Below, one piece after another: positions 18 to 12,468 of a DNA stretch of 12,546 nucleotides. The DNA lies in the NCBI GenBank assembly GCA_964549305.1, contig CAZJVM010000070.1, forward strand, positions 1 through 12,546. Reading direction: 5' to 3'. Made by a program: the position numbers and the translations under genes. Under the pieces are notes generated by a model. That model did not search any database, had not been told where the DNA came from, and saw only the letters and a program-made list of their open reading frames with translations. Position 1 is the first letter of the stretch. Each line of letters opens with the position of its first letter. This stretch comes from an uncultured bacterium. Lineage in GTDB: Bacteria > Schekmanbacteria > GWA2-38-11 > J061.

Positions 18-2456
18 TTAAATCCTGAAAAACTCTTTTACTTTTTTTACTGCCTCGAGGGCATCTTTCGCGTAAAGAGAAGCGCCTATTTTATCGGCAA
101 AGCTTTGTGTTACCACTGCACCTCCCACTGCAACGGGTATTTTTATATTCTTGTCCCGAAGCGATTTTATTACTGTTTCCATCTGCATTACGGTGGTAGT
201 CATCAGCGCTGAAAGCCCTATCAGGTCAACCTTGTTTTTCTCCGCTTCTGCCAATATGGTTTCGCAGGGCACATTCTTGCCCACGTCAATTACATTGAAT
301 CCGTGGTTTTGAAGAAGCGTGGTGAGAATGTTCTTCCCGATGTCGTGTACATCTCCTTCCACTGTTGCCATTAGAATTTTTTTACCTGTCTGTTCACCCG
401 TTTCCTTCATATCCCGCTTGATTCTTTTCAACGCCTTTTCGATTACTTCCGCGGACATGAGCACCTGAGGAAGAAACATCGTGTTGTCGCGAAAGGATTC
501 GCCGACTTTTTCAAGAGCGGGAATGAGGTATTTGTTGCTTATGTCAAGGGGGGCGACTCCCTCGTCCAACGCTTTTTCAACAAGAGGGATGATTGCATCC
601 TTGTCACCTTCTATTACGGATTTTAAAACTTTATCTTCCATGCTTGCGGGCTCATCGCTGACCGATACCTTTCCCGATGCCTGTTTCTGTCCGCTTCCCG
701 ATTCCTTTAGCTCGAGGTTTGTCGAAGTGGTGAAGTTGATATATTTTACCGCGCCCCTGTCAAAACCTGTTAGAAGTGACGCGGTGACAATTGTCTCCTG
801 TATGCGCGCCTCGAGGGGATTGATTATTGCCGCATCGAGACCCTTTGCAATTGCCATTGTAAGAAACGCCGAGTTTACCGTGTTTCGCGAAGGAAGTCCG
901 TGGGATACATTGCTTACGCCGAGAATTGTGGGAATGTTCAGCTTTGTTTTTACAAGCTCTACTGCGCGCAAAGTTTCAAGGGCGCAATCGGGTTGTGCCG
1001 CAACTGTGGATACCACGCAGTCCGCAATAATGTCTTCACGGCGAAGCCCTTCCTTTTCCGCGCGCTCGACAATCTGCCTGATTATATCGAATTTTTCTTC
1101 CGCAGTCTCCGGTACGCCTTTTTCATTGACTGCGAGGGCAAGGACCGCGGCGCCGTATTTTTTCGCGATGGGAAGAATCGAGGAAAGTTTTGACTCCTCG
1201 CCACTTACGGAGTTGATAATAGCTTTTCCCGAAAATGCCTTTAACCCCGCCTCGATTGCCTCGGGATTTGACGAATCTATCATAAGGGGTACATCGGCGG
1301 CAGACTGCACTTCGTAAACTGCCCTTGAAATAAGCTCCACTTCGTCTGCGCCCGGTATGCCCATATTGATATCGAGCATAGCCGCGCCTGCCTTCACCTG
1401 CCTGATTGCGTCTTCGCGCACAAGGGAGAAATCTCCTGCCTGGACTTTCTCCGATAATATCCTTCGCCTCGTAGGATTGATTCTCTCTCCGACTACCGTA
1501 AAGGGATTGCCCCCTCCTATTGCGTGAAGCGTTGTCCTTCCCGCGACAAAAAGACCCTCGGGGGATTTTCTTCTTTTCGGTTTCAGCCCTTTTACGGCTT
1601 TTTTCATTTCGGCAAGGTGCGCGGGAGTCGTGCCGCAACAACCTCCGATTATGCTTGCCCCGGCGCAAACAAGCTTCTTCGCGCCTTCGGACATATCCTG
1701 CGGTGTCGCGGGAAAGACCGTTTTGCCTTCAACGAGTTCGGGAAGTCCCGCATTGGGCTGAAAGATTAGCGGAGTTTTTGAAACCGATGCCATTTTTTCG
1801 GCAATCTCAGCCATACCTTCGGCGCCGAGACTGCAGTTCGCGCCCAGCGCGCTCACATCGAGGGCATCGATTATTACCGCGGCAATTTCAGGAGTAACTC
1901 CCACGAGGGTGCGAAGATTTGTCTGGAAGGTCATTGTGGCGATAACCGGTTTGTCAGTTACCGATTTTGCCGCGATTACTGCCGCCTTGAGCTCTGATGG
2001 CTCGTCCATTGTTTCGATTATGATTATGTCCGCGCCTGCGTCAACGCACGCCTTTATCTGATTTCTGAAAGCTTCGACGGCATCGTCGAATTTAAGATTT
2101 CCAACGGGATAGATTAGTTTTCCCGTAGGCCCTATTGACGCGGCGATTAGGGCTTTTCCGTCCGATATGTCCCTGAGCGTCTTTATCCCTTCAAAATTTA
2201 TCTTATATACATCTTCCCGGAGTGAGTGCTCTTCAAGCTTGATACTGCTTGCGCCGAAAGTGTTTGTTTCGAGTGCTTCGCATCCGGCGTCAATATATAG
2301 TTTCGCGATTTTCTGAAGCCAGTCCGGATGATTTATATTTATCATTTCAGGAGGAAGATTTTTTTCGAATGGCTTGTTTTGAAGCATTGTGCCGGTGGCA
2401 CCGTCAAATAGAAAAATTCTTTCACTCAGCGTTTTTTCGAATTCTTTTTTATTCAT
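18..2456 (-). CDS. metH: Cobalamin-dependent methionine synthase (homocysteine-binding, pterin-binding, cap and B12-binding domains; no C-terminal AdoMet reactivation domain)
   Basis: Homocysteine domain: FDGATGT, ETNTFGA, ASIGPTG and the Zn-ligand motifs GANCSLG and IIGGCCGT. Pterin domain: VGERINPT, LDINMG, IDSS, INSVSGE, GVSNVSHG. Cap: FLPQVLMSAE. B12 domain: GDVHDIGKNI, GLSALMTTT, VGGA. The protein ends at 812 aa just after the B12 domain. Confidence 0.93.
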   Translation of the reverse strand: MNKKEFEKTLSERIFLFDGATGTMLQNKPFEKNLPPEMININHPDWLQKIAKLYIDAGCEALETNTFGASSIKLEEHSLREDVYKINFEGIKTLRDISDGKALIAASIGPTGKLIYPVGNLKFDDAVEAFRNQIKACVDAGADIIIIETMDEPSELKAAVIAAKSVTDKPVIATMTFQTNLRTLVGVTPEIAAVIIDALDVSALGANCSLGAEGMAEIAEKMASVSKTPLIFQPNAGLPELVEGKTVFPATPQDMSEGAKKLVCAGASIIGGCCGTTPAHLAEMKKAVKGLKPKRRKSPEGLFVAGRTTLHAIGGGNPFTVVGERINPTRRRILSEKVQAGDFSLVREDAIRQVKAGAAMLDINMGIPGADEVELISRAVYEVQSAADVPLMIDSSNPEAIEAGLKAFSGKAIINSVSGEESKLSSILPIAKKYGAAVLALAVNEKGVPETAEEKFDIIRQIVERAEKEGLRREDIIADCVVSTVAAQPDCALETLRAVELVKTKLNIPTILGVSNVSHGLPSRNTVNSAFLTMAIAKGLDAAIINPLEARIQETIVTASLLTGFDRGAVKYINFTTSTNLELKESGSGQKQASGKVSVSDEPASMEDKVLKSVIEGDKDAIIPLVEKALDEGVAPLDISNKYLIPALEKVGESFRDNTMFLPQVLMSAEVIEKALKRIKRDMKETGEQTGKKILMATVEGDVHDIGKNILTTLLQNHGFNVIDVGKNVPCETILAEAEKNKVDLIGLSALMTTTVMQMETVIKSLRDKNIKIPVAVGGAVVTQSFADKIGASLYAKDALEAVKKVKEFFRI

Positions 2457-2464
2457 TGAAAAAT

Positions 2465-3268
2465 CTAATTATTTTTTTTGTTTTCCCTGATGTTTACCGC
2501 TTCAGCGGGTTGTCTCATTTTGTAGATGAAGAAAGCGATTGCTGCGGGCACGAGTATGAGCGCGACGCCCTGTGATGTGGAAATGAGATTTTCGATTATG
2601 AATCCTCTGTCATCACCTCTGAAAAATTCCACGCAAAATCTTGCCGTGCCGTAAAGGATTACATACAGGATGGCATTTTGTCCGTCAAACTTCTTTTTCT
2701 TTAGCGAGAAATGAAGAATTATGAAAATTAAGAGATTGAAAATGCTTTCATATATTTGCGTCGGGTGAATATGAAGTCCAAGCACCTGATAGGCGAGACC
2801 CTTTGGATTGGTGAATGTAACTGCCCAGGGAACATCCGTTTCTCTCCCGTAACAGCATCCTGCCATAAAACATCCCACTCTGCCGAATGCGTGACCAAGA
2901 GGAAGCGCAGTCGCGAAGATATCGATGAATTTCCAGGGGGGCATCTTTTTTCTTTTCAGGAGAAAGTATCCCACGGGAAGTGCCACAAGAAATCCGCCGT
3001 AGAAAACGAGTCCGCCTTCCCACACTTTGAATATGGAAAGCAGGTCATCACGATAATATCTGAATTCCACGATCACATACATAATACGGGCGCCGATTAT
3101 TCCCGCGATGACGAGATAAAGAGTTATGTCGAGGGCATTTTGCACATCGAGATTTTCCCTCTCTGCCTGCTTCATAATATAGAAAAGGGCAAGGAGTATG
3201 CCTATGGCAATGAGCGTGCCGTAGGTTTTTATTTCAAGCCCGAAAATATTGAAAAGTATGGGATGCAC
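2465..3268 (-). CDS. lgt: Prolipoprotein diacylglyceryl transferase
   Basis: Multi-TM membrane protein with Lgt motifs IGARIMYV, WEGGLVFYGG, GRVGCFMAGCCYG, HPTQIYE and RFCVEFFR. GTG start with an AAAGGA SD-like sequence about 10 nt upstream. Confidence 0.96.
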   Translation of the reverse strand: MHPILFNIFGLEIKTYGTLIAIGILLALFYIMKQAERENLDVQNALDITLYLVIAGIIGARIMYVIVEFRYYRDDLLSIFKVWEGGLVFYGGFLVALPVGYFLLKRKKMPPWKFIDIFATALPLGHAFGRVGCFMAGCCYGRETDVPWAVTFTNPKGLAYQVLGLHIHPTQIYESIFNLLIFIILHFSLKKKKFDGQNAILYVILYGTARFCVEFFRGDDRGFIIENLISTSQGVALILVPAAIAFFIYKMRQPAEAVNIRENKKNN

Positions 3269-3304
3269 TGAGTCACAATCCTTTAAATATTAAGCATTTT
3301 CTGC

Positions 3305-3334
3305 ATTATAGATTTATATAAGCTGAAGCGTCAA
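3305..3334 (-). promoter_or_regulatory. Putative sigma70 promoter for lgt-metH
   Basis: On the minus strand, TTGACG (3334-3329), an 18-nt spacer and TATAAT (3310-3305), lying 36 nt upstream of the lgt GTG. Confidence 0.65.
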
Positions 3335-3410
3335 GAAATTATATGGGAAAGGGAGCTTTTTTATGATAAAATCGGTAATAAAATCAATAAGAAAGCAGTG
3401 ATTTTATATC

Positions 3411-3439
3411 TTGACTTCAGTAAGATTTTCTGTTAAAAT
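3411..3439 (+). promoter_or_regulatory. Putative sigma70 promoter for gyrA with extended -10
   Basis: TTGACT (3411-3416), a 17-nt spacer and TAAAAT (3434-3439), with TG at 3431-3432. SD GAGGAG at 3484-3489. Confidence 0.75.
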
Positions 3440-3491
3440 TAGTGTAATTAAAGCATATAAAAATATAATAAAATATAAATTTTGAGGAGAA

Positions 3492-5921
3492 ATGATGTCA
3501 TCTGCCATATCAACTAATCTGATTCCCGTCAATATCGAAGACGAGATGAAGAATTCCTACATTGATTACGCGATGAGTGTAATCATAGGAAGAGCGCTTC
3601 CGGATGTGCGCGACGGATTGAAACCCGTACATCGCAGGGTTTTGTTTGCAATGGATGAATTACATCTTGTTTACAATAAGCCCTATAAAAAGTCGGCGAG
3701 AGTAGTCGGAGAAGTGCTTGGTAAATATCATCCTCACGGCGATTCCGCAGTTTATGACACGATGATAAGAATGGTGCAGGATTTTTCGCTTCGTTATCCT
3801 CTCATAGACGGACAGGGGAATTTCGGCTCAGTTGACGGTGATTCCGCCGCGGCAATGCGTTACACGGAAGTCAGAATGTCGAAGATTGCCCAGGAGATGT
3901 TGAGGGACATCGACAAGGAGACAGTGGACTTCATTCCAAATTTTGATGAAACACTTGCCGAGCCCGTAGTACTTCCTGCAAGAATTCCCAATTTGCTCGT
4001 CAACGGCTCATCGGGTATCGCGGTGGGAATGGCAACGAATATTCCGCCTCACAATCTCGGCGAAGTTGTGGACGCGGCAGTGCATCTTGTTAACAATCCC
4101 GACTCTACCATCGAGGAGCTCGCAAATTTCGTTCCGGGTCCTGATTTTCCCACAGGCGCATATATATGCGGAAAAAACGGTATCCGCGACGCGTACAGAA
4201 CCGGCAGAGGAAAGCTGATTTTAAGGGGAAAGAGTTTCATCGAGGAGCTGAAAAACGGAAGGCAGAATATCATTATCACCGAGCTTCCCTATCAGGTTAA
4301 CAAGGCAAAACTCATTGAAGCTATCGCGCATCTTGTAAAAGATAAAAAAGTTGAGGGAATCTCCGACCTTCGCGACGAGTCTGACAGAGATGGGATGAGA
4401 ATATTCATCGGGCTCAAGCGCGACGCAATTGCTAAAGTGGTCCTCAACAATCTTTATAAGCATACTCAGCTTCAGCAGACCTTCGGAATCATAATGCTTT
4501 CTATGGTTAACGGAGAGCCCAAAGTCTTGAATCTCAAGGAAACACTGAGCTACTTCGTTGAATTCAGGAAAGAGATTATCGTAAAGCGCACCCGTTATGA
4601 TTTGAGAAAGGCCGAAGAGAAAGCCCACATACTCGAAGGTTTGAAAACGGCAGTCGAGAATATCGATGAGGTTGTGGCACTCATCAAGAAAGCGAAGAAT
4701 CCCGCTGACGCAAAGGAACAACTGATGAAGCGTTTTCCGCTCTCTGAAATTCAGGCAAAGGAAATTCTCATAATGCAGCTTCAGCGCCTCACCGGGCTTG
4801 AGAGAGATAAAATTATATCAGACTACAAGGAAACCCTTAAGCTTATTGCCGAATACAAGGCCATACTCTCGAACGAGCAGAAGGTCAGGGATATAGTGAG
4901 CAAGGAACTGCTCGAGGTGAAGGAAGAGTATGACGATGAAAGGCGCACAGAAATCATAGCCGATCCAACTGACTTCGATCGCGAGGACCTCATCAAGAAG
5001 GAAGATATGGCGGTGACCATTTCCCACACAGGTTACATCAAGAGAAACGCCCTGAGCGTTTACCAAAGCCAGAGGCGGGGCGGTAAGGGAAAAACGGGTA
5101 TGACCACGAGAACCGAAGATTTTGTGGAACATTTGTTCATTGCCAGCACGCACGACTTTATTCTTTTCTTTTCAAATTTCGGAAAAGTTTACTGGATAAA
5201 GGTTTACGAAATTCCCGAACTTGGCAGAAGCGCAAAGGGAAGAGCGATTGTCAATCTGCTCAATCTTTCTGCTGGTGAAAATATTTGCGCTTCCGTTCCT
5301 GTGTCGGAGTTTGATTCAGAGCATTATGTGACAATGGTGACGAGCAAGGGCATTATCAAGAAGACCACGCTCGATGCCTTCAGTCATCCGCGGGCAGGCG
5401 GAATCATCGCTGTCAACCTTGATGAAGGTGACGAGCTTGTTTCAGTGAAGATTACCGACGGGGCGAAAGACATACTCATAGCAATGAGAAACGGCAAAAG
5501 CATACGTTTCCCGGAATCGGATGTAAGGACAACAGGACGTGCGACAAGAGGCGTTAAAGGCGTATCCCTTACAAATGATGACAGGGTTATAGGAATGGCA
5601 ATCGTAGATAACAGCAACAGCATTCTCTCTGTTACCGAAAAAGGTTTTGGCAAGAGGACTGCCGTTAAGGAATACAGAGTGCAGTCAAGAGGCGGAAAGG
5701 GAATCATCACCATAAAGACCACCGAAAGAAACGGCAAAGTCGTCGGAGTAAAACAGGTCAGCGATTTGGACAACATAATGATTATTGCCTCTGACGGAAA
5801 AATAATCCGCCTCAATGTGGGTGAATTATCCATAATAGGACGAAACACTCAGGGTGTAAAACTTATCGGCATTGATGAAGCAGCTAAGGTTGTTGAGGTT
5901 GCTACTATAGCTCACGAGTAA
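3492..5921 (+). CDS. gyrA: DNA gyrase subunit A (true start may be the second ATG at 3495, which has better SD spacing)
   Basis: [30 protein letters not shown] (S85/D89, equivalent to E. coli S83/D87); catalytic Tyr124 in AAAMRYTE; GyrA-box QRRGGKG (5070-5090), which distinguishes it from ParC; beta-pinwheel C-terminal repeats. Confidence 0.98.
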
Positions 5922-6037: not shown

Positions 6038-7735
6038 TTACTCCACAGGCTTAAATGAATACTTCCCGCAGAAGCTTTTAACTTTGCGGTTAAAGATGTC
6101 GGGATGTTCGAGAGCTGAATAGTGGTCCGTGTTATCGAAAATGACAATCTGCGCGTCAGGAACTTTTGCATCTGCGATAATCTTGAAAAGCGCTGTTCCC
6201 ACTTCACGATTCATCACTGCATCGTGATATCCCCAGACAAGCAGAGTGGGTACTCTCAATTTTCCCGCCTTGATATCATCAAGGGCTTTCTTCTGTAACT
6301 TTAGAAAAGCCGGACTACCGGGATGAACACCGTGTTTTGTCATCAGTTTTGTCGCTTCAATCATCTTGGGCAAAGTTATAAATTTGAAGCGGCGCGCCAC
6401 TTTCTCATCCGTAATATTGTTGAGGGAGTAGGACTCCAATTCAAATCCCCGCCTTGTGCTTTCAATGGTAGGTCCTTCGGGAGGATTCAAAAAACCGAGT
6501 GTATAAATGAAAAATGGCATCGACCTTCTCAGGGGGTCAACAGGCGCGGGCGCGCCGTCAATATTGACAAGAGATTTGACCATTTCAGGATGGTCAATAG
6601 CAATTCGCGTTACTGGCCATCCTCCCTGTGAGTGCCCGATAAGATGAACTTTTTTTATTCCCATTGCCTTTATAAATCCCAGGACGTGCTCTACTACCTG
6701 TTCATAGTGCCTGTCGTAATCTTCCTCTTTTTTCGGATTGTCCGTGTAGCCCTGTCCAAGTCTGTCCAGAGCGTATACGTGGAAGTATTTTGAGAGATAA
6801 TAAAAATTCTGCTCCCAGCTTTGCGCGTTTCCTGCGCCCCCTGCCTGTCCGCCGTGTACAAGAAGCAAAGCATCACCTTCACCCTTATCAAAATATCTTG
6901 TCCTTATTCCGTCGATGTCTAAATATTTTGCGTCTTCGTCTTTCATTGAGCCTGCCCAGGGAGGAGGCGGAAGTTTTGCATAGGCAATGCCTTCTTTTTC
7001 TTCACCTCCCGATAGTTTTATTTTTTCGACAATGATTTTCACGGGAGATTGCTGTTGTCCCCTTATTTTTACAAGCGCCCTGATTGATGAATCATTGCAG
7101 ACGGGCTGATTGAGCGGTTGTGCCGATGCCGGATTTTCTTGTGATGACCGCGCGTCAAGTTGTTGTTGAATTTCCAATCTTTGAGATTGGGGAATTTCAT
7201 CAATGTCTTCATTTGATAAAAGGGAAACTGTTGGCCATTTCCCTTCCGGAAATTTTATTTCAGATTCACGGACGAAGGAGAAATTCCCCGGATTGTCCGC
7301 CTTGATATTCAGAATTTTGTAAGGCATATCAGGGGTGGTAAGGTTTTCAAAGGATGCTTCAGGTATGATTATTCTGTCCGTGATTTCAATATTCAAATTT
7401 TCGCAAAGAGGTTTTCCGGTATTGTTGTCAACAATGCTCATCGTCGAAGCTTTTGCATTGTCTTCCGCTTTTAAAATGAGATAGATGCCCGGAATGTCCT
7501 TGTCGATATTACACATTTCAAGGTATTGCTCATATTCAACTTTTATATTGGATTCCAAAAGTCCTGCAAGTTTGTAATCTGAAGTAATATTGTTTCCGCA
7601 TATTAAGAACGCTTTTCGTTCACCTCTGTCTAAAATACCTGAATCGATGGCGCACTCATCAGCAAAGAGATATGACGGGAAGACGAGAAACGACAGTAAA
7701 GACAACAGACAGGTGAAACGAAGCAGTCTTGTCAT
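6038..7735 (-). CDS. Predicted exported alpha/beta-fold hydrolase with an unrecognised N-terminal region
   Basis: Sec-type signal (MTRLLRF, hydrophobic core, YLFA/DE). The C-terminal ~300 aa contain LLVHGG, ALDRLGQGYTD, the nucleophile elbow GHSQGG, PTLLVWGYHD (acid) and TDHY (His). SD AGGAG at 7750-7746. Confidence 0.85.
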   Translation of the reverse strand: MTRLLRFTCLLSLLSFLVFPSYLFADECAIDSGILDRGERKAFLICGNNITSDYKLAGLLESNIKVEYEQYLEMCNIDKDIPGIYLILKAEDNAKASTMSIVDNNTGKPLCENLNIEITDRIIIPEASFENLTTPDMPYKILNIKADNPGNFSFVRESEIKFPEGKWPTVSLLSNEDIDEIPQSQRLEIQQQLDARSSQENPASAQPLNQPVCNDSSIRALVKIRGQQQSPVKIIVEKIKLSGGEEKEGIAYAKLPPPPWAGSMKDEDAKYLDIDGIRTRYFDKGEGDALLLVHGGQAGGAGNAQSWEQNFYYLSKYFHVYALDRLGQGYTDNPKKEEDYDRHYEQVVEHVLGFIKAMGIKKVHLIGHSQGGWPVTRIAIDHPEMVKSLVNIDGAPAPVDPLRRSMPFFIYTLGFLNPPEGPTIESTRRGFELESYSLNNITDEKVARRFKFITLPKMIEATKLMTKHGVHPGSPAFLKLQKKALDDIKAGKLRVPTLLVWGYHDAVMNREVGTALFKIIADAKVPDAQIVIFDNTDHYSALEHPDIFNRKVKSFCGKYSFKPVE

Positions 7736-8011: not shown

Positions 8012-8041
8012 TTGACACTCATTTTAGTAGATTGATATAAA
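8012..8041 (+). promoter_or_regulatory. Putative sigma70 promoter of the ACP operon
   Basis: TTGACA (8012-8017), an 18-nt spacer and TATAAA (8036-8041), with extended -10 TG at 8033-8034, about 100 nt upstream of the ACP start. Confidence 0.6.
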
Positions 8042-8140: not shown

Positions 8141-8443
8141 ATGAATGAAAAAGTGATTCAGATAATCTTCGATGTGGTTGACGAAGTTAACGAGGAATTG
8201 CCGGAAGAATCCCGCCTTGAAAAATCCCCCGATACAGTGCTTTTCGGTGAATCGGGAAAACTCGATTCTTTGGGGCTTGTCAATCTCGTTGTTGCCGTGG
8301 AAGAGAATCTCGAGGACGAATTCGGGAAAGCGATATCCCTTACCGACGAGAAGGCGATGTCGCAGAAAAGAAGCCCATTCAAAACGGTGAAGACTCTCGC
8401 CGAATACATTACAACTCTTCTTGAGGAGAAGGACAATAGCTGA
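8141..8443 (+). CDS. Acyl carrier protein (specialised, stand-alone)
   Basis: Small, very acidic 100-aa protein with the phosphopantetheine site GKLDSLGLV (Ser43), followed by VAVEENLEDEFG and a C-terminal TVKTLAEYI helix. Confidence 0.9.
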   Translation: MNEKVIQIIFDVVDEVNEELPEESRLEKSPDTVLFGESGKLDSLGLVNLVVAVEENLEDEFGKAISLTDEKAMSQKRSPFKTVKTLAEYITTLLEEKDNS

Positions 8444-9137
8444 CCGGAAAGTAATGCTCATAACGGGTACGCGCAAGGGAATAGGAAAATTCCTCGCTGA
8501 ATATTACTGCGCGAAGGGATACCGCGTCATAGGGTGCAGTCGCGGCAAAGCGGAATATGAGCTCGACAACTACACCCACTACTGCCTCGATGTCTGCGAT
8601 GAGGGGGAAGTGAAAAAGATGTTCAGGGACCTGCGCAAAGACTTCGGACGCCTCGATGTGCTCATCAACAACGCGGGAGTGGCTTCGATGAATCACTTTC
8701 TGCTTACTCCCATTGAAACGGTGAAGAAGATTCTGAATACAAATGTAGTCGGGGGTTTTCTTTTTTCCCGTGAGGCGACAAAACTTATGAAGAAGAATAA
8801 ATTCGGAAGGATTGTTAATTTTGTCACTTTTGCCATTCCCTTCAAGCTCGAGGGCGAAGCTATTTATGCCGCGTCGAAAGCGGCTGTGGCAACATTGACT
8901 GAAGTATTGAGCCGCGAACTCGCGGAATTCGGTATAACGGTAAACGCAGTGGGACCTCCCGCGGTGCAGACCGATTTAATCAGGGGAGTGCCAAAGGAAA
9001 AACTCGACAGACTTCTTCAGAGGCAGGCTATTCACCGTTACGGAGATATGAAGGAAGTGGCTAATGTGATAGATTTTTTCATTAAGCCCGAAAGCGAAAT
9101 GGTTACGGGACAGCTCATCTATCTCGGCGGTATCTGA
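8436..9137 (+). CDS. SDR family oxidoreductase, FabG/3-oxoacyl-ACP reductase-like (start uncertain: TTG 8421, ATA 8436 or ATG 8454)
   Basis: TGTRKGIG, INNAG, YAASK and GITVNAVGP motifs. Basic residues (TRKG, CSR) suggest NADP(H) preference. Its stop overlaps the next start (TGATG, 9135-9139). Confidence 0.88.
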   Translation: MADRKVMLITGTRKGIGKFLAEYYCAKGYRVIGCSRGKAEYELDNYTHYCLDVCDEGEVKKMFRDLRKDFGRLDVLINNAGVASMNHFLLTPIETVKKILNTNVVGGFLFSREATKLMKKNKFGRIVNFVTFAIPFKLEGEAIYAASKAAVATLTEVLSRELAEFGITVNAVGPPAVQTDLIRGVPKEKLDRLLQRQAIHRYGDMKEVANVIDFFIKPESEMVTGQLIYLGGI

Positions 9138-10486
9138 TGTTTATAGATTTTCTTCTTAAAGTTTTCGAGGAAAAACCGGACGCTGACGCTATAGTTTGGA
9201 AGGGAAAAGTTTCCGGTTACGGCTGGCTTCGCGAGAGAATAGAATATTGGCGCAAACGTCTTGAAGGCGAAAATGTGAAGCCCGGCACTGTGGTTGTACT
9301 TGAAGGTGATTTTTCTCCCAATTCCATCGCGCTTCTCCTTGCCCTTACGGAAATGCGCGCCATAATCGTTCCTCTTACAAAAATTGTGAAGGCAAAGCGC
9401 GAGGAATTTATTCAAATAGCGCGGGGCGAAAAACTGATTTTGTTATCGGAAGATGACGAAGCGGAAATCTCAGACCTTCCCTATGAGGCGAAGGGAGAAC
9501 TTTTCGAAACCATCCGCAATCGGAATGTGCCGGGACTAATCCTTTTCACATCGGGCTCAACGGGGAAGAGCAAAGCGGCAGTTCACGATTTTTCGAAGCT
9601 TTTTGAGAAGTTCAAGGTGAGAAGGCATTCGCTCAGAATAATTAATTTCCTCCTCTTTGACCATTGGGGCGGTTTGAACACTATGCTTTACGCCCTTTCA
9701 AACGGAGGTACCATAATCACAGTGCAGGACAGAAGTCCCGAAAGCGTGTGCGCTCTTGTGGAAAAGCACAGAGCAGACCTTCTTCCCTCGTCACCGACGT
9801 TTCTGAATCTTCTCATTATAAGCGAGGCATATAAGAAGTATGACCTGAGCAGTCTTAAGACCATATCTTACGGCGCCGAACCGATGCTTCCCCATACGCT
9901 CAGGAAACTTTCGGAAATATTTCCCGGCACAAAACTTCTTCAGACCTACGGGCTTATTGAGCTTGGAGTCCTGCGCTCGGAGTCAAAAAGCGCCGATTCG
10001 CTCTGGGTCAAGGTGGGAGGAGAAGGTTTTCAGACGAGAATAGTGGACGGCATACTTCAGATTAAGGCGCACTCTGCAATGCTTGGTTATCTCAACGCTC
10101 CGAGCCCTTTTACCGATGACGGATGGTTTATAACGGGCGACTCGGTAGAGCAGGACGGTGAGTACATAAAAATACTCGGGAGAAAATCGGAGATGATAAA
10201 TGTGGGAGGAGAGAAGGTATATCCCGCGGAGGTGGAAAGCGTGATTCAGCAAATGGACAATGTGTTAGAGGCTATTGTGTATGGCGAAAAGAATCCTATT
10301 ACAGGAAGTATAGTCTGCGCGAAGGTAAATCTCGTAAAGGACGAAGACCGCAAGGCGTTTGCAAAACGGCTGAAGAAGTTTTGCCGCGCGAAACTTCAGA
10401 ATTTTAAGGTGCCCGTAAAGGTAAAAGTTGTAGAGGAGAAGCTTGTAAGTGAAAGATTTAAAAAGAGCAGAAATATAAAACAGTGA
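9137..10486 (+). CDS. ANL-superfamily AMP-dependent acyl ligase (acyl-CoA/acyl-ACP synthetase-like)
   Basis: LFTSGSTGKSK P-loop, QTYGLIE, WFITGD, ILGRKSEMINVGGEKVYPAEVE and a C-terminal Lys in SERFKK. GTGA overlap with the next gene at 10483-10486. Confidence 0.92.
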   Translation: MFIDFLLKVFEEKPDADAIVWKGKVSGYGWLRERIEYWRKRLEGENVKPGTVVVLEGDFSPNSIALLLALTEMRAIIVPLTKIVKAKREEFIQIARGEKLILLSEDDEAEISDLPYEAKGELFETIRNRNVPGLILFTSGSTGKSKAAVHDFSKLFEKFKVRRHSLRIINFLLFDHWGGLNTMLYALSNGGTIITVQDRSPESVCALVEKHRADLLPSSPTFLNLLIISEAYKKYDLSSLKTISYGAEPMLPHTLRKLSEIFPGTKLLQTYGLIELGVLRSESKSADSLWVKVGGEGFQTRIVDGILQIKAHSAMLGYLNAPSPFTDDGWFITGDSVEQDGEYIKILGRKSEMINVGGEKVYPAEVESVIQQMDNVLEAIVYGEKNPITGSIVCAKVNLVKDEDRKAFAKRLKKFCRAKLQNFKVPVKVKVVEEKLVSERFKKSRNIKQ

Positions 10487-11508
10487 AAATTTGCAAACTT
10501 ACGCCTGAATATTTTGATAAACTTATTGCCTTCAATGAAAAGGTTTTTCCCGAAAGAGTAAATTTCAAAGAGAGATTCAAATCTCAATTTCTTGACAATC
10601 CTTATCTTGAAGACAGGGAGAAACCCTGCGGATATCTTTCTCTTTCCGATGAAGACGAGATAACGGGACAGTTTCTCATAAATCCCTGCAGGTTTCATTT
10701 CAAGGGAAATGATTACGGCGGATTTTTCGGCCACGATTTTTACGCTCTTCAGGAATACGGAGGAGAGCACGGAGCAATGCTTGCCCTCAGGGCAATCAGA
10801 GGGTCAAAGCCCTATTTCGCAATCGGGGTCACCGAAAAAGCTCAGAAGATTCATCTTTCGGTGAAGGCAAGGATAATAGGCAGTATGTACAAGTATGTTT
10901 GGTTTGGAAATATTATTCTCTCTTCCCTTAAGATGGCAAAATATTTTATTTCCCGAAACGATGCTTCCTCACCTGCATATGAAAAAGCGGATTTTCCGCA
11001 AAGAGTCAGGGCAGATTCCGGTGAAATCAAATTGTCGAAAACTCCACGCTTTACTGCTGATTATCATTGGGAGAATATGATTGAATTTGCCCGTGATTCG
11101 AAATTTCTTGAATGGCGTTTTGCTGAAAGGTTTGCAAGCTACGGTTTTTACACCTTTAAAAGCGATGATAAGGAATGTTTCTTTGCCCTTCGAAGATGTT
11201 TCTGGAAGGGTCTGAAACTCCTTGCCCTTGTCGATTACAGGACTCCTCCCGGTGACGCGAATGCGTCTGAAACCGTATTGAAAGCGTCAAAGATAATCGC
11301 GAAAAAAATGAAACGCGACGGCGTAATTTCATATAGCTCAAATCACTTTTATGACACGGAGTTTAAGAGACAGTTATTTTTCAGGGCAGGGCGTCCCTGC
11401 TACATAATGACCAATGCGAAAATGGATGTACGGGAAGATGATATTGAAGAAAGAAAATCGGTGTTTGCCACGATGGCGGATTCCGATACCGATTTTAATT
11501 TTGACTGA
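10483..11508 (+). CDS. Probable GNAT-fold (tandem) acyltransferase of the kind found in polysaccharide loci
   Basis: GTG start coupled to the ligase stop. Segments QFLDNPY, GHDFYALQEYGGEHGAML (degenerate motif A), RDSKFLEWRF, LALVDY and terminal TMADSD resemble, from recall, GNAT-like proteins of surface-glycan clusters. The fold assignment is by pattern only. Confidence 0.55.
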   Translation: MKICKLTPEYFDKLIAFNEKVFPERVNFKERFKSQFLDNPYLEDREKPCGYLSLSDEDEITGQFLINPCRFHFKGNDYGGFFGHDFYALQEYGGEHGAMLALRAIRGSKPYFAIGVTEKAQKIHLSVKARIIGSMYKYVWFGNIILSSLKMAKYFISRNDASSPAYEKADFPQRVRADSGEIKLSKTPRFTADYHWENMIEFARDSKFLEWRFAERFASYGFYTFKSDDKECFFALRRCFWKGLKLLALVDYRTPPGDANASETVLKASKIIAKKMKRDGVISYSSNHFYDTEFKRQLFFRAGRPCYIMTNAKMDVREDDIEERKSVFATMADSDTDFNFD

Positions 11509-12468
11509 TTAAATGCCTTTCCTTGAGAGCGAAACCCAAAGACCTGAAATCTTCGCGAGAAGAGAATACCTGTTGAATTTACTGTCAACGGCTTTTCTCT
11601 TTAAGGTGAAAAGGTTTTCTCCTTTCACGCAGTTTCCGTTAATTGTCGTAAGGGCGCATTCAAATCCCGATTCTTCGAGAATCTTAATCGTTGACTCATT
11701 GAAGTCCGGGGCATCTCCGTTGGGATAGGCAAAATACCTGACGGTGGTTTGAAGTTTTGTTTCGATTATTTTCCTGGATTCGCTAATTTCTTTTCGCGCC
11801 TGTGAAAGGGGAATTCCGCTTAAAATCGGGTGCGAAAGAGTATGCGCGCCGAAAGTTACAAATCCGCTTTCGCGCATTTCCTTAATCTGCGCCCAGTTCA
11901 GAATTCTATATTTTTCCCATTTACTGTCTGCATACAATTCTTCACTGTTTTTGGTAAACTCCGAGATGATTCTTTCTCTTTCACTCTCGTCATACCTTTT
12001 GAAATGCTCAGCAACATGGTCAAAGTGAAGGCCTTTGAGTTGTGGGTATTTTGTGAAGAATGCTTCGCTTTTTTCCTCAGTAATGATTTCAAGCATATCA
12101 AACCAGAATAGTTTTGGTGTGTCCACAAAATCGGTTGTAAGAAATACAATGGCAGGGATTTTGTACTTTATTAAAGTCGGAAATATATCAGAATAAAAGG
12201 ACTCATAACCATCATCAAATGTAATTACAATACCGTATTCAATATTGTTTTGGTTTTTGAGGCAGTCAACACATTCCTCAAGAGATATAATTTTATAATA
12301 TTTAAGCAGTTCTTTTATATGACTCTCAAAGTCCTTACCGCTTATATTGTGATAATTCAGGATGGTAATTTCGTTTTTCTTTCTGAAGCGCCACAGATGA
12401 AAAATCCCCGTATAAAAAACAAACCTGCTGAAAGTTTCACGCACCGCCTTTTTAATCAGATTTTTCAT
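11509..12468 (-). CDS. Polysaccharide deacetylase (CE4/NodB homology, IcaB-like type with helical insert)
   Basis: ILNYH, ITFDDGY, metal-binding GAHTLSHP and FAYPNG motifs, plus LKR near the C-terminus. No clear signal peptide. Confidence 0.92.
   Translation of the reverse strand: MKNLIKKAVRETFSRFVFYTGIFHLWRFRKKNEITILNYHNISGKDFESHIKELLKYYKIISLEECVDCLKNQNNIEYGIVITFDDGYESFYSDIFPTLIKYKIPAIVFLTTDFVDTPKLFWFDMLEIITEEKSEAFFTKYPQLKGLHFDHVAEHFKRYDESERERIISEFTKNSEELYADSKWEKYRILNWAQIKEMRESGFVTFGAHTLSHPILSGIPLSQARKEISESRKIIETKLQTTVRYFAYPNGDAPDFNESTIKILEESGFECALTTINGNCVKGENLFTLKRKAVDSKFNRYSLLAKISGLWVSLSRKGI

What the first reader, a model, noticed from the sequence alone, without database searches (positions are those of the whole stretch)
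8141..11508. Ketosynthase-free ACP / reductase / adenylating ligase / GNAT acylation cassette
Seen: four co-oriented genes with overlapping junctions (TGATG, GTGA, and a probable ACP-SDR overlap) behind their own promoter. The operon ends at a convergent gene and contains no ketosynthase, malonyl transacylase or thioesterase. Established: ANL ligases can load free acids onto dedicated carrier proteins (DltA/DltC), FabG-type SDRs reduce oxoacyl-ACP, and some GNAT-fold enzymes use acyl-ACP donors (LuxI, FeeM). Inference: a self-contained load-reduce-transfer line that activates a small oxo-acid, reduces it to a hydroxyacyl group and transfers it to an amine, probably on a surface glycan or sugar nucleotide. 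Similar cassettes occur in other glycan loci as far as I recall, but I know of no characterised product.
Basis: partly seen in the sequence, partly recalled or inferred. Interest (0 to 1): 0.72.

Follow-up and report, generated by a model that had tools for sequence, protein, structure and literature searches.

The report
Chloramphenicol-type acyl module re-acylating sugars
Three adjacent genes of this uncultured bacterium are relatives of a carrier-protein module from the chloramphenicol and mupirocin pathways and, together with an acyltransferase and a neighbouring deacetylase gene, likely swap the acetyl group of a cell-surface amino sugar for a short hydroxy-acid, an untested route that recurs in many phyla.

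Summary
The four co-oriented genes and their overlaps are real. Gene 4 is a tandem GNAT (confident model; NMT/Eis-like fold).

(1) The unit has five genes: the convergent gene is an intact CE4 deacetylase, and in a same-family genome it is the co-oriented fifth gene. (2) The conserved core is only ACP-SDR-ligase. It occurs across many phyla with interchangeable acyltransferases, and 33 of 56 well-flanked loci insert FabH plus an MBL hydrolase, so 'ketosynthase-free' marks a subtype (22 of 56).

The ligase is 39% identical to MupQ and 37% to chloramphenicol CmlK. The ACP is CmlM-family, and the gene order matches cmlM-cmlJ-cmlK.

Best reading (inferred, 0.45): a MupQ-type route makes a short omega-hydroxyacyl-ACP, likely 3-hydroxypropionyl from malonyl-CoA, and the GNAT puts it on a sugar amine freed by the deacetylase (VimE/VimA logic). 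No substrate is shown.

The scan has noted this cassette on other DNA several times; the CmlMJK link was not in the notes I saw. New variant of a known kind; interest 0.45.

The parts
8012..8041 (+). Candidate sigma-70 promoter (perfect -35, 18 nt, extended -10) in an AT-rich divergent intergenic region; untested
   Evidence: Read by eye; the scan is not above chance
8141..8443 (+). Dedicated acyl carrier protein, 100 aa, CmlM (Sven0925) family; Ser43 (codon 8267-8269) is the predicted phosphopantetheine site
   Evidence: PF00550 E 0.0018, below cut-off; S43 invariant in 54 homologs; 28 of 53 residues identical to Sven0925 over residues 34-86, counted by eye from Fig. S2 of PMC4249514
8436..9137 (+). 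SDR reductase of a ligase-associated clade; start ATA 8436 or ATG 8454; TGxxxGIG, Y144-xxx-K148, Thr131 at the usual catalytic Ser position
   Evidence: PF13561 E 5.6e-44; clade support 99, apart from the pTML1 SDR and the FabG-like paralog; motifs; start comparison
9137..10486 (+). ANL adenylating ligase, 449 aa, of the MupQ / CmlK family
   Evidence: 39% to MupQ over 442 aa; 37% to S. venezuelae CmlK ortholog P0422 and 40% to the pTML1 ligase; at most 29% to other ANL enzymes of the genome
10483..11508 (+). Tandem GNAT acyltransferase, 341 aa, NMT/Eis-like fold, with a shortened motif A loop; predicted acyl-ACP:amine N-acyltransferase
   Evidence: AlphaFold2 with a 133-sequence alignment, pLDDT 94.9; Foldseek NMT E 2e-10; VIA Z 19.7 / rmsd 4.6 / 292 aligned to 2p6e and Z 19.5 / 3.2 / 272 to 4my0; motif A
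11509..12468 (-). CE4 (NodB/IcaB-type) polysaccharide deacetylase, 319 aa, convergent but part of the unit; motifs LNYH37, TFDDG83, HTLSH209, FAYPNG246 intact
   Evidence: PF01522 E 8e-26; motifs; co-oriented fifth gene in G002; convergent next to gene-4 orthologs in L098 and L107

Best explanation
This is a five-gene unit (ACP, SDR, MupQ/CmlK-family ligase, tandem GNAT, CE4 deacetylase) that likely swaps the N-acetyl group of a cell-envelope amino sugar for a short hydroxy-acyl group built on its own carrier protein. Shown: gene identities, folds, family membership of the ligase and ACP, and linkage in relatives. Inferred steps: (1) the genome's single ACPS-family transferase primes Ser43; (2) the ligase adenylates the free carboxyl of a dicarboxyl-CoA, most likely malonyl-CoA, and loads it on the ACP, as reported for MupQ/MacpD; (3) the SDR reduces the CoA end with NADPH to give 3-hydroxypropionyl-ACP (4-hydroxybutyryl from succinyl-CoA is the alternative), which needs no ketosynthase or FabD; (4) the CE4 enzyme removes an N-acetyl group from a sugar nucleotide or lipid-linked sugar in the cytoplasm; (5) the GNAT transfers the acyl group from ACP to the freed amine. 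I put the general acetyl-for-acyl swap on a sugar at about 0.7 and this specific MupQ-type chemistry at 0.45.
For: Ligase 39% to MupQ, and MupQ, CmlK, the pTML1 ligase and the window ligase share 36-46% identity. MupQ + MupS + MacpD make 3-hydroxypropionate from malonyl-CoA (PMC10098928 passages). At N181-T182 the pocket matches MupQ, not the pTML1 ligase. Gene order equals cmlM-cmlJ-cmlK and the ACP is CmlM-family. All five genes occur together in G002 at another chromosomal site, and none of ligase ortholog, ACP, gene 4 or close deacetylase was found in same-genus G001, 97% complete. Gene-4 relatives sit beside a CE4 gene in 8 of 10 metagenome loci. In G006 the same GNAT family directly follows an unrelated ACP donor module, FkbH-ACP-MaoC/SDR. 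L084 has a ligase-GNAT fusion behind an ACP and a PIG-L-like gene. Motif A is canonical in 7 of 7 relatives with no ACP module in the locus held, and shortened or degenerate in 7 of 8 module-linked ones (about three lineages, not independent). VimE/VimA is a precedent for CE4 plus acyltransferase swapping on a sugar (PMC7468200 passages).
Against: No substrate or product is shown for any gene here. The SDR is not orthologous to the pTML1 (TmlS-position) SDR: 26% identity, separate clade. The ACP barely matches the pTML1 ACP (E 0.04). So MupS chemistry is an analogy only. The ligase has Trp177 where MupQ, the pTML1 ligase and CmlK have Ile; Trp is the residue of the FabH-containing types. The window has no glycosyltransferase or sugar-pathway neighbours, and the LPS-core setting in G002 is an insertion, since lpxK and lpxL are 67 bp apart in G000. 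The GNAT + CE4 pair also occurs without any module nearby (L099, L101, L102, G003). L100 is module-linked but keeps a full motif A. The same triple feeds PKS, condensation-domain and halogenase pathways elsewhere. The SDR start codon is uncertain.
Confidence: 0.45

Rival explanations
1. Same sugar re-acylation, but the ligase loads a free small oxo-acid onto the ACP and the SDR reduces its ketone FabG-style.
For: The SDR's best structural-database hits are FabG enzymes; Trp177 suggests a small pocket unlike MupQ's; the SDR is not of the pTML1 SDR clade; CmlK has been proposed to tether a carboxylic acid on CmlM (PMC4249514).
Against: The only family members with reported chemistry start from malonyl-CoA; FabG hits are generic and no curated FabG equivalog cut-off is met.
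Confidence: 0.2
2. The module is not self-contained: the ligase supplies malonyl-ACP, the housekeeping FabH acts in trans and the SDR gives 3-hydroxybutyryl-ACP, a common N-acyl group of O-antigens (recalled).
For: FabH + MBL are inside 33 of 56 loci; the window ligase shares Trp177 with those types and groups next to them in a quick tree; G000 has one FabH on C119; F. psychrophilum uses ACP/KS/KR genes for its N-acyl group (PMC6519341).
Against: SDRs of the contiguous type differ from those of the FabH types (53-67% versus 32-50% identity to the window; separate subclades); the MBL hydrolase that accompanies FabH is absent; CmlM/J/K has no ketosynthase in the published gene table.
Confidence: 0.13
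3. The four genes make a small-molecule amide (chloramphenicol-like logic) and the deacetylase is a hitch-hiker or acts on that metabolite.
For: The closest characterised relatives are antibiotic pathways; contiguous-type triples also precede PKS, condensation-domain or AAC(3)-family genes among housekeeping genes; the window has no glycan genes.
Against: Gene-4 relatives lie in polysaccharide clusters with glycosyltransferases, Wzx/Wzy and aminotransferases; no scaffold-building or export gene is adjacent; CE4 linkage recurs in 8 of 10 loci.
Confidence: 0.13
4. The GNAT acylates proteins (NMT/Eis-like) and the CE4 protein removes the mark.
For: The top fold matches are N-myristoyltransferases and Eis-like tandem GNATs.
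Against: Identity to these is 7-12%, and glucosamine N-acetyltransferases share the fold (5kf1 Z 15.4, 4zm6 Z 16.4); CE4 enzymes act on sugars (recalled); glycan-locus context of relatives.
Confidence: 0.05

Closest known systems
CmlM / CmlJ / CmlK (sven0925-0927) of chloramphenicol biosynthesis, Streptomyces venezuelae (PMC4249514)
   Same: Same order ACP-SDR-AMP ligase (Table 3). Ligase 37% over 460 aa to P0422, identified as CmlK because both published sven0927 primers translate into it. ACP 28 of 53 identical in the core, by eye. The SDR is 41% to the SDR of a Rhizobium plasmid cluster that carries a CmlS halogenase above the NCBIfam cut-off. No ketosynthase.
   Different: No halogenase or NRPS here; a tandem GNAT and a CE4 deacetylase instead. 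CmlJ itself could not be fetched. The paper says the roles of these cml genes 'remain obscure', so it gives no chemistry to transfer.
MupQ / MupS / MacpD (mupirocin) and the matching ligase-SDR-ACP block of thiomarinol plasmid pTML1
   Same: Ligase 39% to MupQ (Q8RL54) and 40% to the pTML1 ligase, full length with shared family motifs; a three-protein, ketosynthase-free route to a hydroxyacyl-ACP.
   Different: The SDR (26%) and ACP (E 0.04) are of other lineages; the gene order differs; the product feeds a KS there and an acyltransferase here; Trp177 versus Ile. The Tml names are inferred from gene order and 46% identity to MupQ, as the record gives none.
VimE / VimA of the Wbp/Vim pathway (Porphyromonas gingivalis, Tannerella forsythia; PMC7468200)
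   Same: A CE4 deacetylase plus an N-acyltransferase proposed to replace the N-acetyl group of a sugar.
   Different: VimA is FemAB-like and transfers Ser or Gly; no ACP module. Homology to the window proteins was not tested.
Flavobacterium psychrophilum wfpC-wfpG (3,5-dihydroxyhexanoyl on bacillosamine; PMC6519341)
   Same: A dedicated ACP, a reductase and an acyltransferase for an N-acyl group of a surface glycan (predicted in that paper).
   Different: Uses two ketoacyl synthases and a PglD-like transferase; the word 'ligase' does not occur in the paper's main text; no deacetylase mentioned in the passages read.
NodB / NodA / NodF (Nod factor core; recalled, no call)
   Same: De-N-acetylation by a CE4 enzyme followed by acylation from a dedicated ACP.
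   Different: Long fatty acyl chain, NodE ketosynthase, NodC glycosyltransferase; no MupQ-type ligase. Not tested here.

Membership tests
CmlM/CmlJ/CmlK module | Gene order ACP-SDR-AMP ligase without a ketosynthase | tested here: met
   versus Table 3 of PMC4249514
CmlM/CmlJ/CmlK module | Ligase homologous to CmlK, well above other ANL enzymes | tested here: met
   37% / 460 aa, 253 bits in G000 versus 74 for the next hit
CmlM/CmlJ/CmlK module | ACP of the CmlM family | tested here: met
   28 of 53 identical by eye; the Bacillus ACP type shown in the same figure is 51% to the window ACP
CmlM/CmlJ/CmlK module | SDR orthologous to CmlJ | tested here: inconclusive
   CmlJ sequence not available; the SDR of a CmlS-containing Rhizobium cluster is 41% identical and in the same clade
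Chloramphenicol dichloroacetyl pathway | Adjacent CmlS halogenase | tested here: not met
   None in the window; the rest of the genome was not searched for it
MupQ/MupS/MacpD priming cassette | MupQ-family ligase | tested here: met
   39% / 442 aa
MupQ/MupS/MacpD priming cassette | MupS/TmlS-clade reductase | tested here: not met
   26% to the pTML1 SDR, lower than the genome's FabG-like paralog at 32%; separate clade. MupS itself was not fetched
MupQ/MupS/MacpD priming cassette | MacpD/TacpD-type ACP | tested here: not met
   No BLAST hit; profile E 0.04
MupQ/MupS/MacpD priming cassette | Dicarboxyl-CoA converted to omega-hydroxyacyl-ACP | not testable with these tools
   Needs reconstitution
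Tandem GNAT acyltransferases | Two GNAT folds in one chain | tested here: met
   32 of 133 family members hit PF13527 at E <= 0.001
Tandem GNAT acyltransferases | Acyl-ACP as the donor | not testable with these tools
   Indirect only: linkage, the L084 fusion and the shortened motif A
CE4 deacetylase | NodB domain with TFDD, HxxxH and catalytic His motifs | tested here: met
DltA/DltC | Amino-acid-activating ligase above family cut-off with the Asp that binds the alpha-amine | tested here: not met
   DltC models score 23 bits versus a cut-off of 68; the position after His176 is Trp, not Asp (position convention recalled)
FabG | TIGR01830 equivalog cut-off and catalytic Ser | tested here: not met
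   148 versus 297.75 bits; Thr131
Wbp/Vim pathway | VimA (FemAB-like) transferase and wbp genes | not tested
   No direct comparison with VimA or VimE; gene 4 has no FemAB Pfam hit

The most novel reading that the evidence does not exclude
The ACP-SDR-ligase triple is one portable, ketosynthase-independent acyl-donor machine shared by chloramphenicol (CmlMJK) and by glycan loci in many phyla. It uses MupQ-type activation of malonyl-CoA, and here it installs an N-3-hydroxypropionyl group on a surface sugar by deacetylation and re-acylation through an ACP-adapted tandem GNAT. The same chemistry would supply the two- or three-carbon ACP-bound substrate for CmlS and so address the unexplained origin of chloramphenicol's dichloroacetyl group.
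Probability: 0.25. Interest if true: 0.72.

Novelty: new variant of a known kind. Interest (0 to 1): 0.45.

Why it matters
The ligase family is large (3,333 clusters at E <= 1e-60 among 7,998 scored candidates) and is annotated generically as fatty acid-CoA ligase. Tying it to MupQ and CmlK gives a concrete assay (dicarboxyl-CoA loading, then reduction) for many unannotated glycan loci. It also gives a testable handle on the dichloroacetyl step of chloramphenicol, which the 2014 paper calls obscure. The acetyl-for-acyl swap would extend VimE/VimA logic to ACP donors. Limits: every part belongs to a known enzyme class, the host is uncultured, and the scan has already noted this cassette in other genomes.

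Tried and rejected
Structure prediction of gene 4 without an alignment failed (pLDDT 32). A profile search of PDB sequences with 7 homologs found nothing meaningful. The ESM Atlas gave no result. Complex prediction of GNAT + ACP gave no verdict (score 0.01).

Sequencing runs: no RNA holder listed. Laid contigs were short, showed no frameshift in what they covered, and did not cover the SDR start. No match to the ligase in the phage collection at E <= 1e-40.

Literature searches for this cassette in glycan loci gave no relevant paper (0 papers; 1 unrelated). Walker et al. 2020, the primary MupQ/TmlQ paper, is not held, so the bis-thioester intermediate and succinyl-CoA for TmlQ are recalled. 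The pTML1 gene table supplement was unreadable.

Rejected: LPS core as the substrate on the basis of G002's neighbourhood (insertion site). Rejected: malonate-CoA ligase MatB as the functional model (top PDB hit, but weak and without the family motifs). Rejected: Ile/Trp177 as a malonyl/succinyl switch, since MupQ and the pTML1 ligase both have Ile. The terminator-like hairpin at 11570-11591 is at chance level (2 found versus 4.4 expected). The ligase tree is the quick tree only, with long branches for the pTML1 and Rhizobium rows, so no order of events is claimed.
Full report
Observation. The window is the whole contig C70 of a 2.94-Mb genome. The SDR has ATA at 8436, where the ortholog in same-family genome G002 has ATG with the same 8-nt overlap; ATG 8454 is the alternative. 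Laid contigs do not cover this place. A promoter is plausible by eye, but the scan is not above chance.

Gene 4. Alone it hits only PF13527 at E 0.023. A 7-sequence profile found 651 representatives at E <= 0.001. I aligned 133 sequences: the window protein, its first homologs and the roughly full-length ones of the 150 listed. The model has pLDDT 94.9 and matches tandem GNATs: N-myristoyltransferases by Foldseek (E 2e-10), and 2p6e (Z 19.7, rmsd 4.6, 292 aligned), 4my0 (Z 19.5, 3.2, 272), Eis proteins and glucosamine N-acetyltransferase 5kf1 (Z 15.4, 4.4, 258) by VIA-align. The GNAT claim is confirmed; the fold does not give the acceptor.

The unit has five genes. The convergent gene is a CE4 deacetylase with intact motifs. 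G002 has ACP-SDR-ligase (65%)-gene 4 (43%)-deacetylase (49%), all co-oriented with overlaps. There the block lies between lpxK and lpxL, which are adjacent in the window's genome, so the LPS setting is an insertion and no evidence on the substrate. In same-genus G001 (97% complete) no ligase ortholog, ACP, gene 4 or close deacetylase was found. Of 10 metagenome loci with a gene-4 relative, 8 have a CE4 gene adjacent, 2 of them convergent as here. Two show the ligase directly upstream, and 3 near-identical loci lie in polysaccharide clusters with no module within 8 kb. Same-order G003 has the deacetylase ortholog with a distant GNAT beside a Wzx flippase, and no such ACP was found there. G006 (59% complete) has the gene-4 family directly after FkbH-ACP-MaoC/SDR.

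The conserved core. 178 stretches in the genome collection encode a ligase relative; the best 80 were kept (46-66% identity, many phyla). Among the 56 with at least 8 kb upstream, 55 have the ACP, 33 have FabH plus an MBL hydrolase, and 22 have contiguous ACP-SDR-ligase. Of the 28 contiguous loci among all 80, the next gene is AAC(3)-family in 10, a GNAT-like protein with a CE4 gene in 4, PKS in 2, MBOAT in 1 and a condensation domain in 1; the rest are other or truncated (my reading). About 15 of 80 loci carry a deacetylase-like ORF in the flank (my reading). L084 has a ligase-GNAT fusion and no SDR. So the triple is portable, the acyltransferase is interchangeable, and ketosynthase-free is a subtype.

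Known relatives. The ligase is 40% identical to the ligase of a ligase-SDR-ACP-PKS block on thiomarinol plasmid pTML1 and 39% to MupQ itself (UniRef Q8RL54). Passages of PMC10098928 state that MupQ, MupS and MacpD make the 3-hydroxypropionate starter from malonyl-CoA and that thiomarinol starts from 4-hydroxybutanoyl. The primary paper is not held; the bis-thioester intermediate is recalled. The window's SDR and ACP are not of the pTML1 lineages. A Rhizobium plasmid hit with a CmlS halogenase led to chloramphenicol. PMC4249514 lists cmlM (ACP), cmlJ (SDR) and cmlK (AMP ligase) in the window's order and says their roles remain obscure (passages). P0422 is the CmlK ortholog by two published primers and is 37% identical to the window ligase. 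CmlM matches the window ACP at 28 of 53 core residues by eye (supplement file 1; file 2 was not searchable). CmlJ could not be fetched. The closest architectural relative is thus CmlMJK, and the only chemistry in print that I could read is MupQ's.

Mechanism. Shown: parts, folds, families and linkage. Inferred: priming by the single ACPS-family enzyme; ligase loading of a dicarboxyl-CoA, with N181-T182 as in MupQ but Trp177 unlike it; SDR reduction to an omega-hydroxyacyl-ACP; CE4 de-N-acetylation; and GNAT transfer. Support for an ACP donor: two unrelated ACP modules precede this GNAT family, a fusion exists, and motif A (the CoA pyrophosphate loop; role recalled) is canonical in 7 of 7 relatives with no module in the locus held but shortened or degenerate in 7 of 8 module-linked ones. 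Those 15 rows are kin, about three lineages; L100 is the exception, and some loci are short. VimE/VimA is the precedent for the swap (PMC7468200 passages). F. psychrophilum wfpC-G is a precedent for ACP-made N-acyl groups on glycans (PMC6519341 passages). Against: no glycan gene in the window, no acceptor identified, the SDR is not MupS-like, and the same triple serves small-molecule pathways.

Other papers seen: PMC3069032 (passages; supplement unreadable, and it may hold the Tml gene names), PMC11273644 (one passage), PMC7024214 (search listing; the terms were not in the held part). Four searches for such a cassette in glycan loci found no relevant paper; the library lacks most subscription journals.

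Verdict. The triple passes as CmlMJK-type on order, ligase and ACP (SDR inconclusive) and fails membership of the MupQ/S/D cassette on SDR and ACP, though it likely works like it. The scan has noted the same cassette in other genomes. New variant of a known kind; interest 0.45.

Noticed in passing
window 8436-8438: The SDR has ATA where the G002 ortholog has its ATG start, with a well-spaced GAGGAG; either a non-canonical start, a shift to ATG 8454, or an assembly error.
   Followed up: partly
window 6038-7735 (-): 565-aa protein with a predicted signal-peptide-like N-terminus, about 250 unannotated residues and a C-terminal HsaD/BphD-like alpha/beta hydrolase domain (NF045632 E 2e-32, below cut-off); divergent from the cassette and not found beside it in the relatives' loci.
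   Followed up: no
window 18-5921: Housekeeping genes: MetH-like B12-dependent methyltransferase (812 aa, no C-terminal activation domain hit in Pfam), lgt and gyrA.
   Followed up: no
L084:5849-8338: Natural fusion of the ligase with a tandem GNAT (829 aa) behind a PIG-L-like gene, ACP and FabH, with no SDR, in a Bdellovibrionales genome.
   Followed up: partly
L097:6037-13656 (Rhizobium plasmid NZ_CP148093): ACP, GNAT-like protein, SDR, ligase, LbH acyltransferase, CmlS halogenase (above cut-off) and hydrolase, flanked by a type I secretion adaptor and IS elements: a candidate chloroacyl-transfer cluster.
   Followed up: partly
L095:6392-9353 (Bacillus cereus-group plasmids, 36 records): Ligase (50%) and CmlM-type ACP (51%) with an unannotated 362-aa protein and no annotated SDR next to them.
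   Followed up: no
L014, L037, L046, L050, L053, L054, L062, L078: Contiguous triple followed by an AAC(3)-family protein among housekeeping genes in Ignavibacteria/Bacteroidota, outside any glycan locus.
   Followed up: no
L135:5702-10577 (G006): FkbH-ACP-MaoC/SDR module directly followed by a gene-4-family GNAT in a glycan cluster.
   Followed up: partly
L011:10574-12735 (G002): A 521-aa secreted-looking protein and a small toxin-antitoxin-like gene pair accompany the cassette at its insertion between lpxK and lpxL.
   Followed up: no
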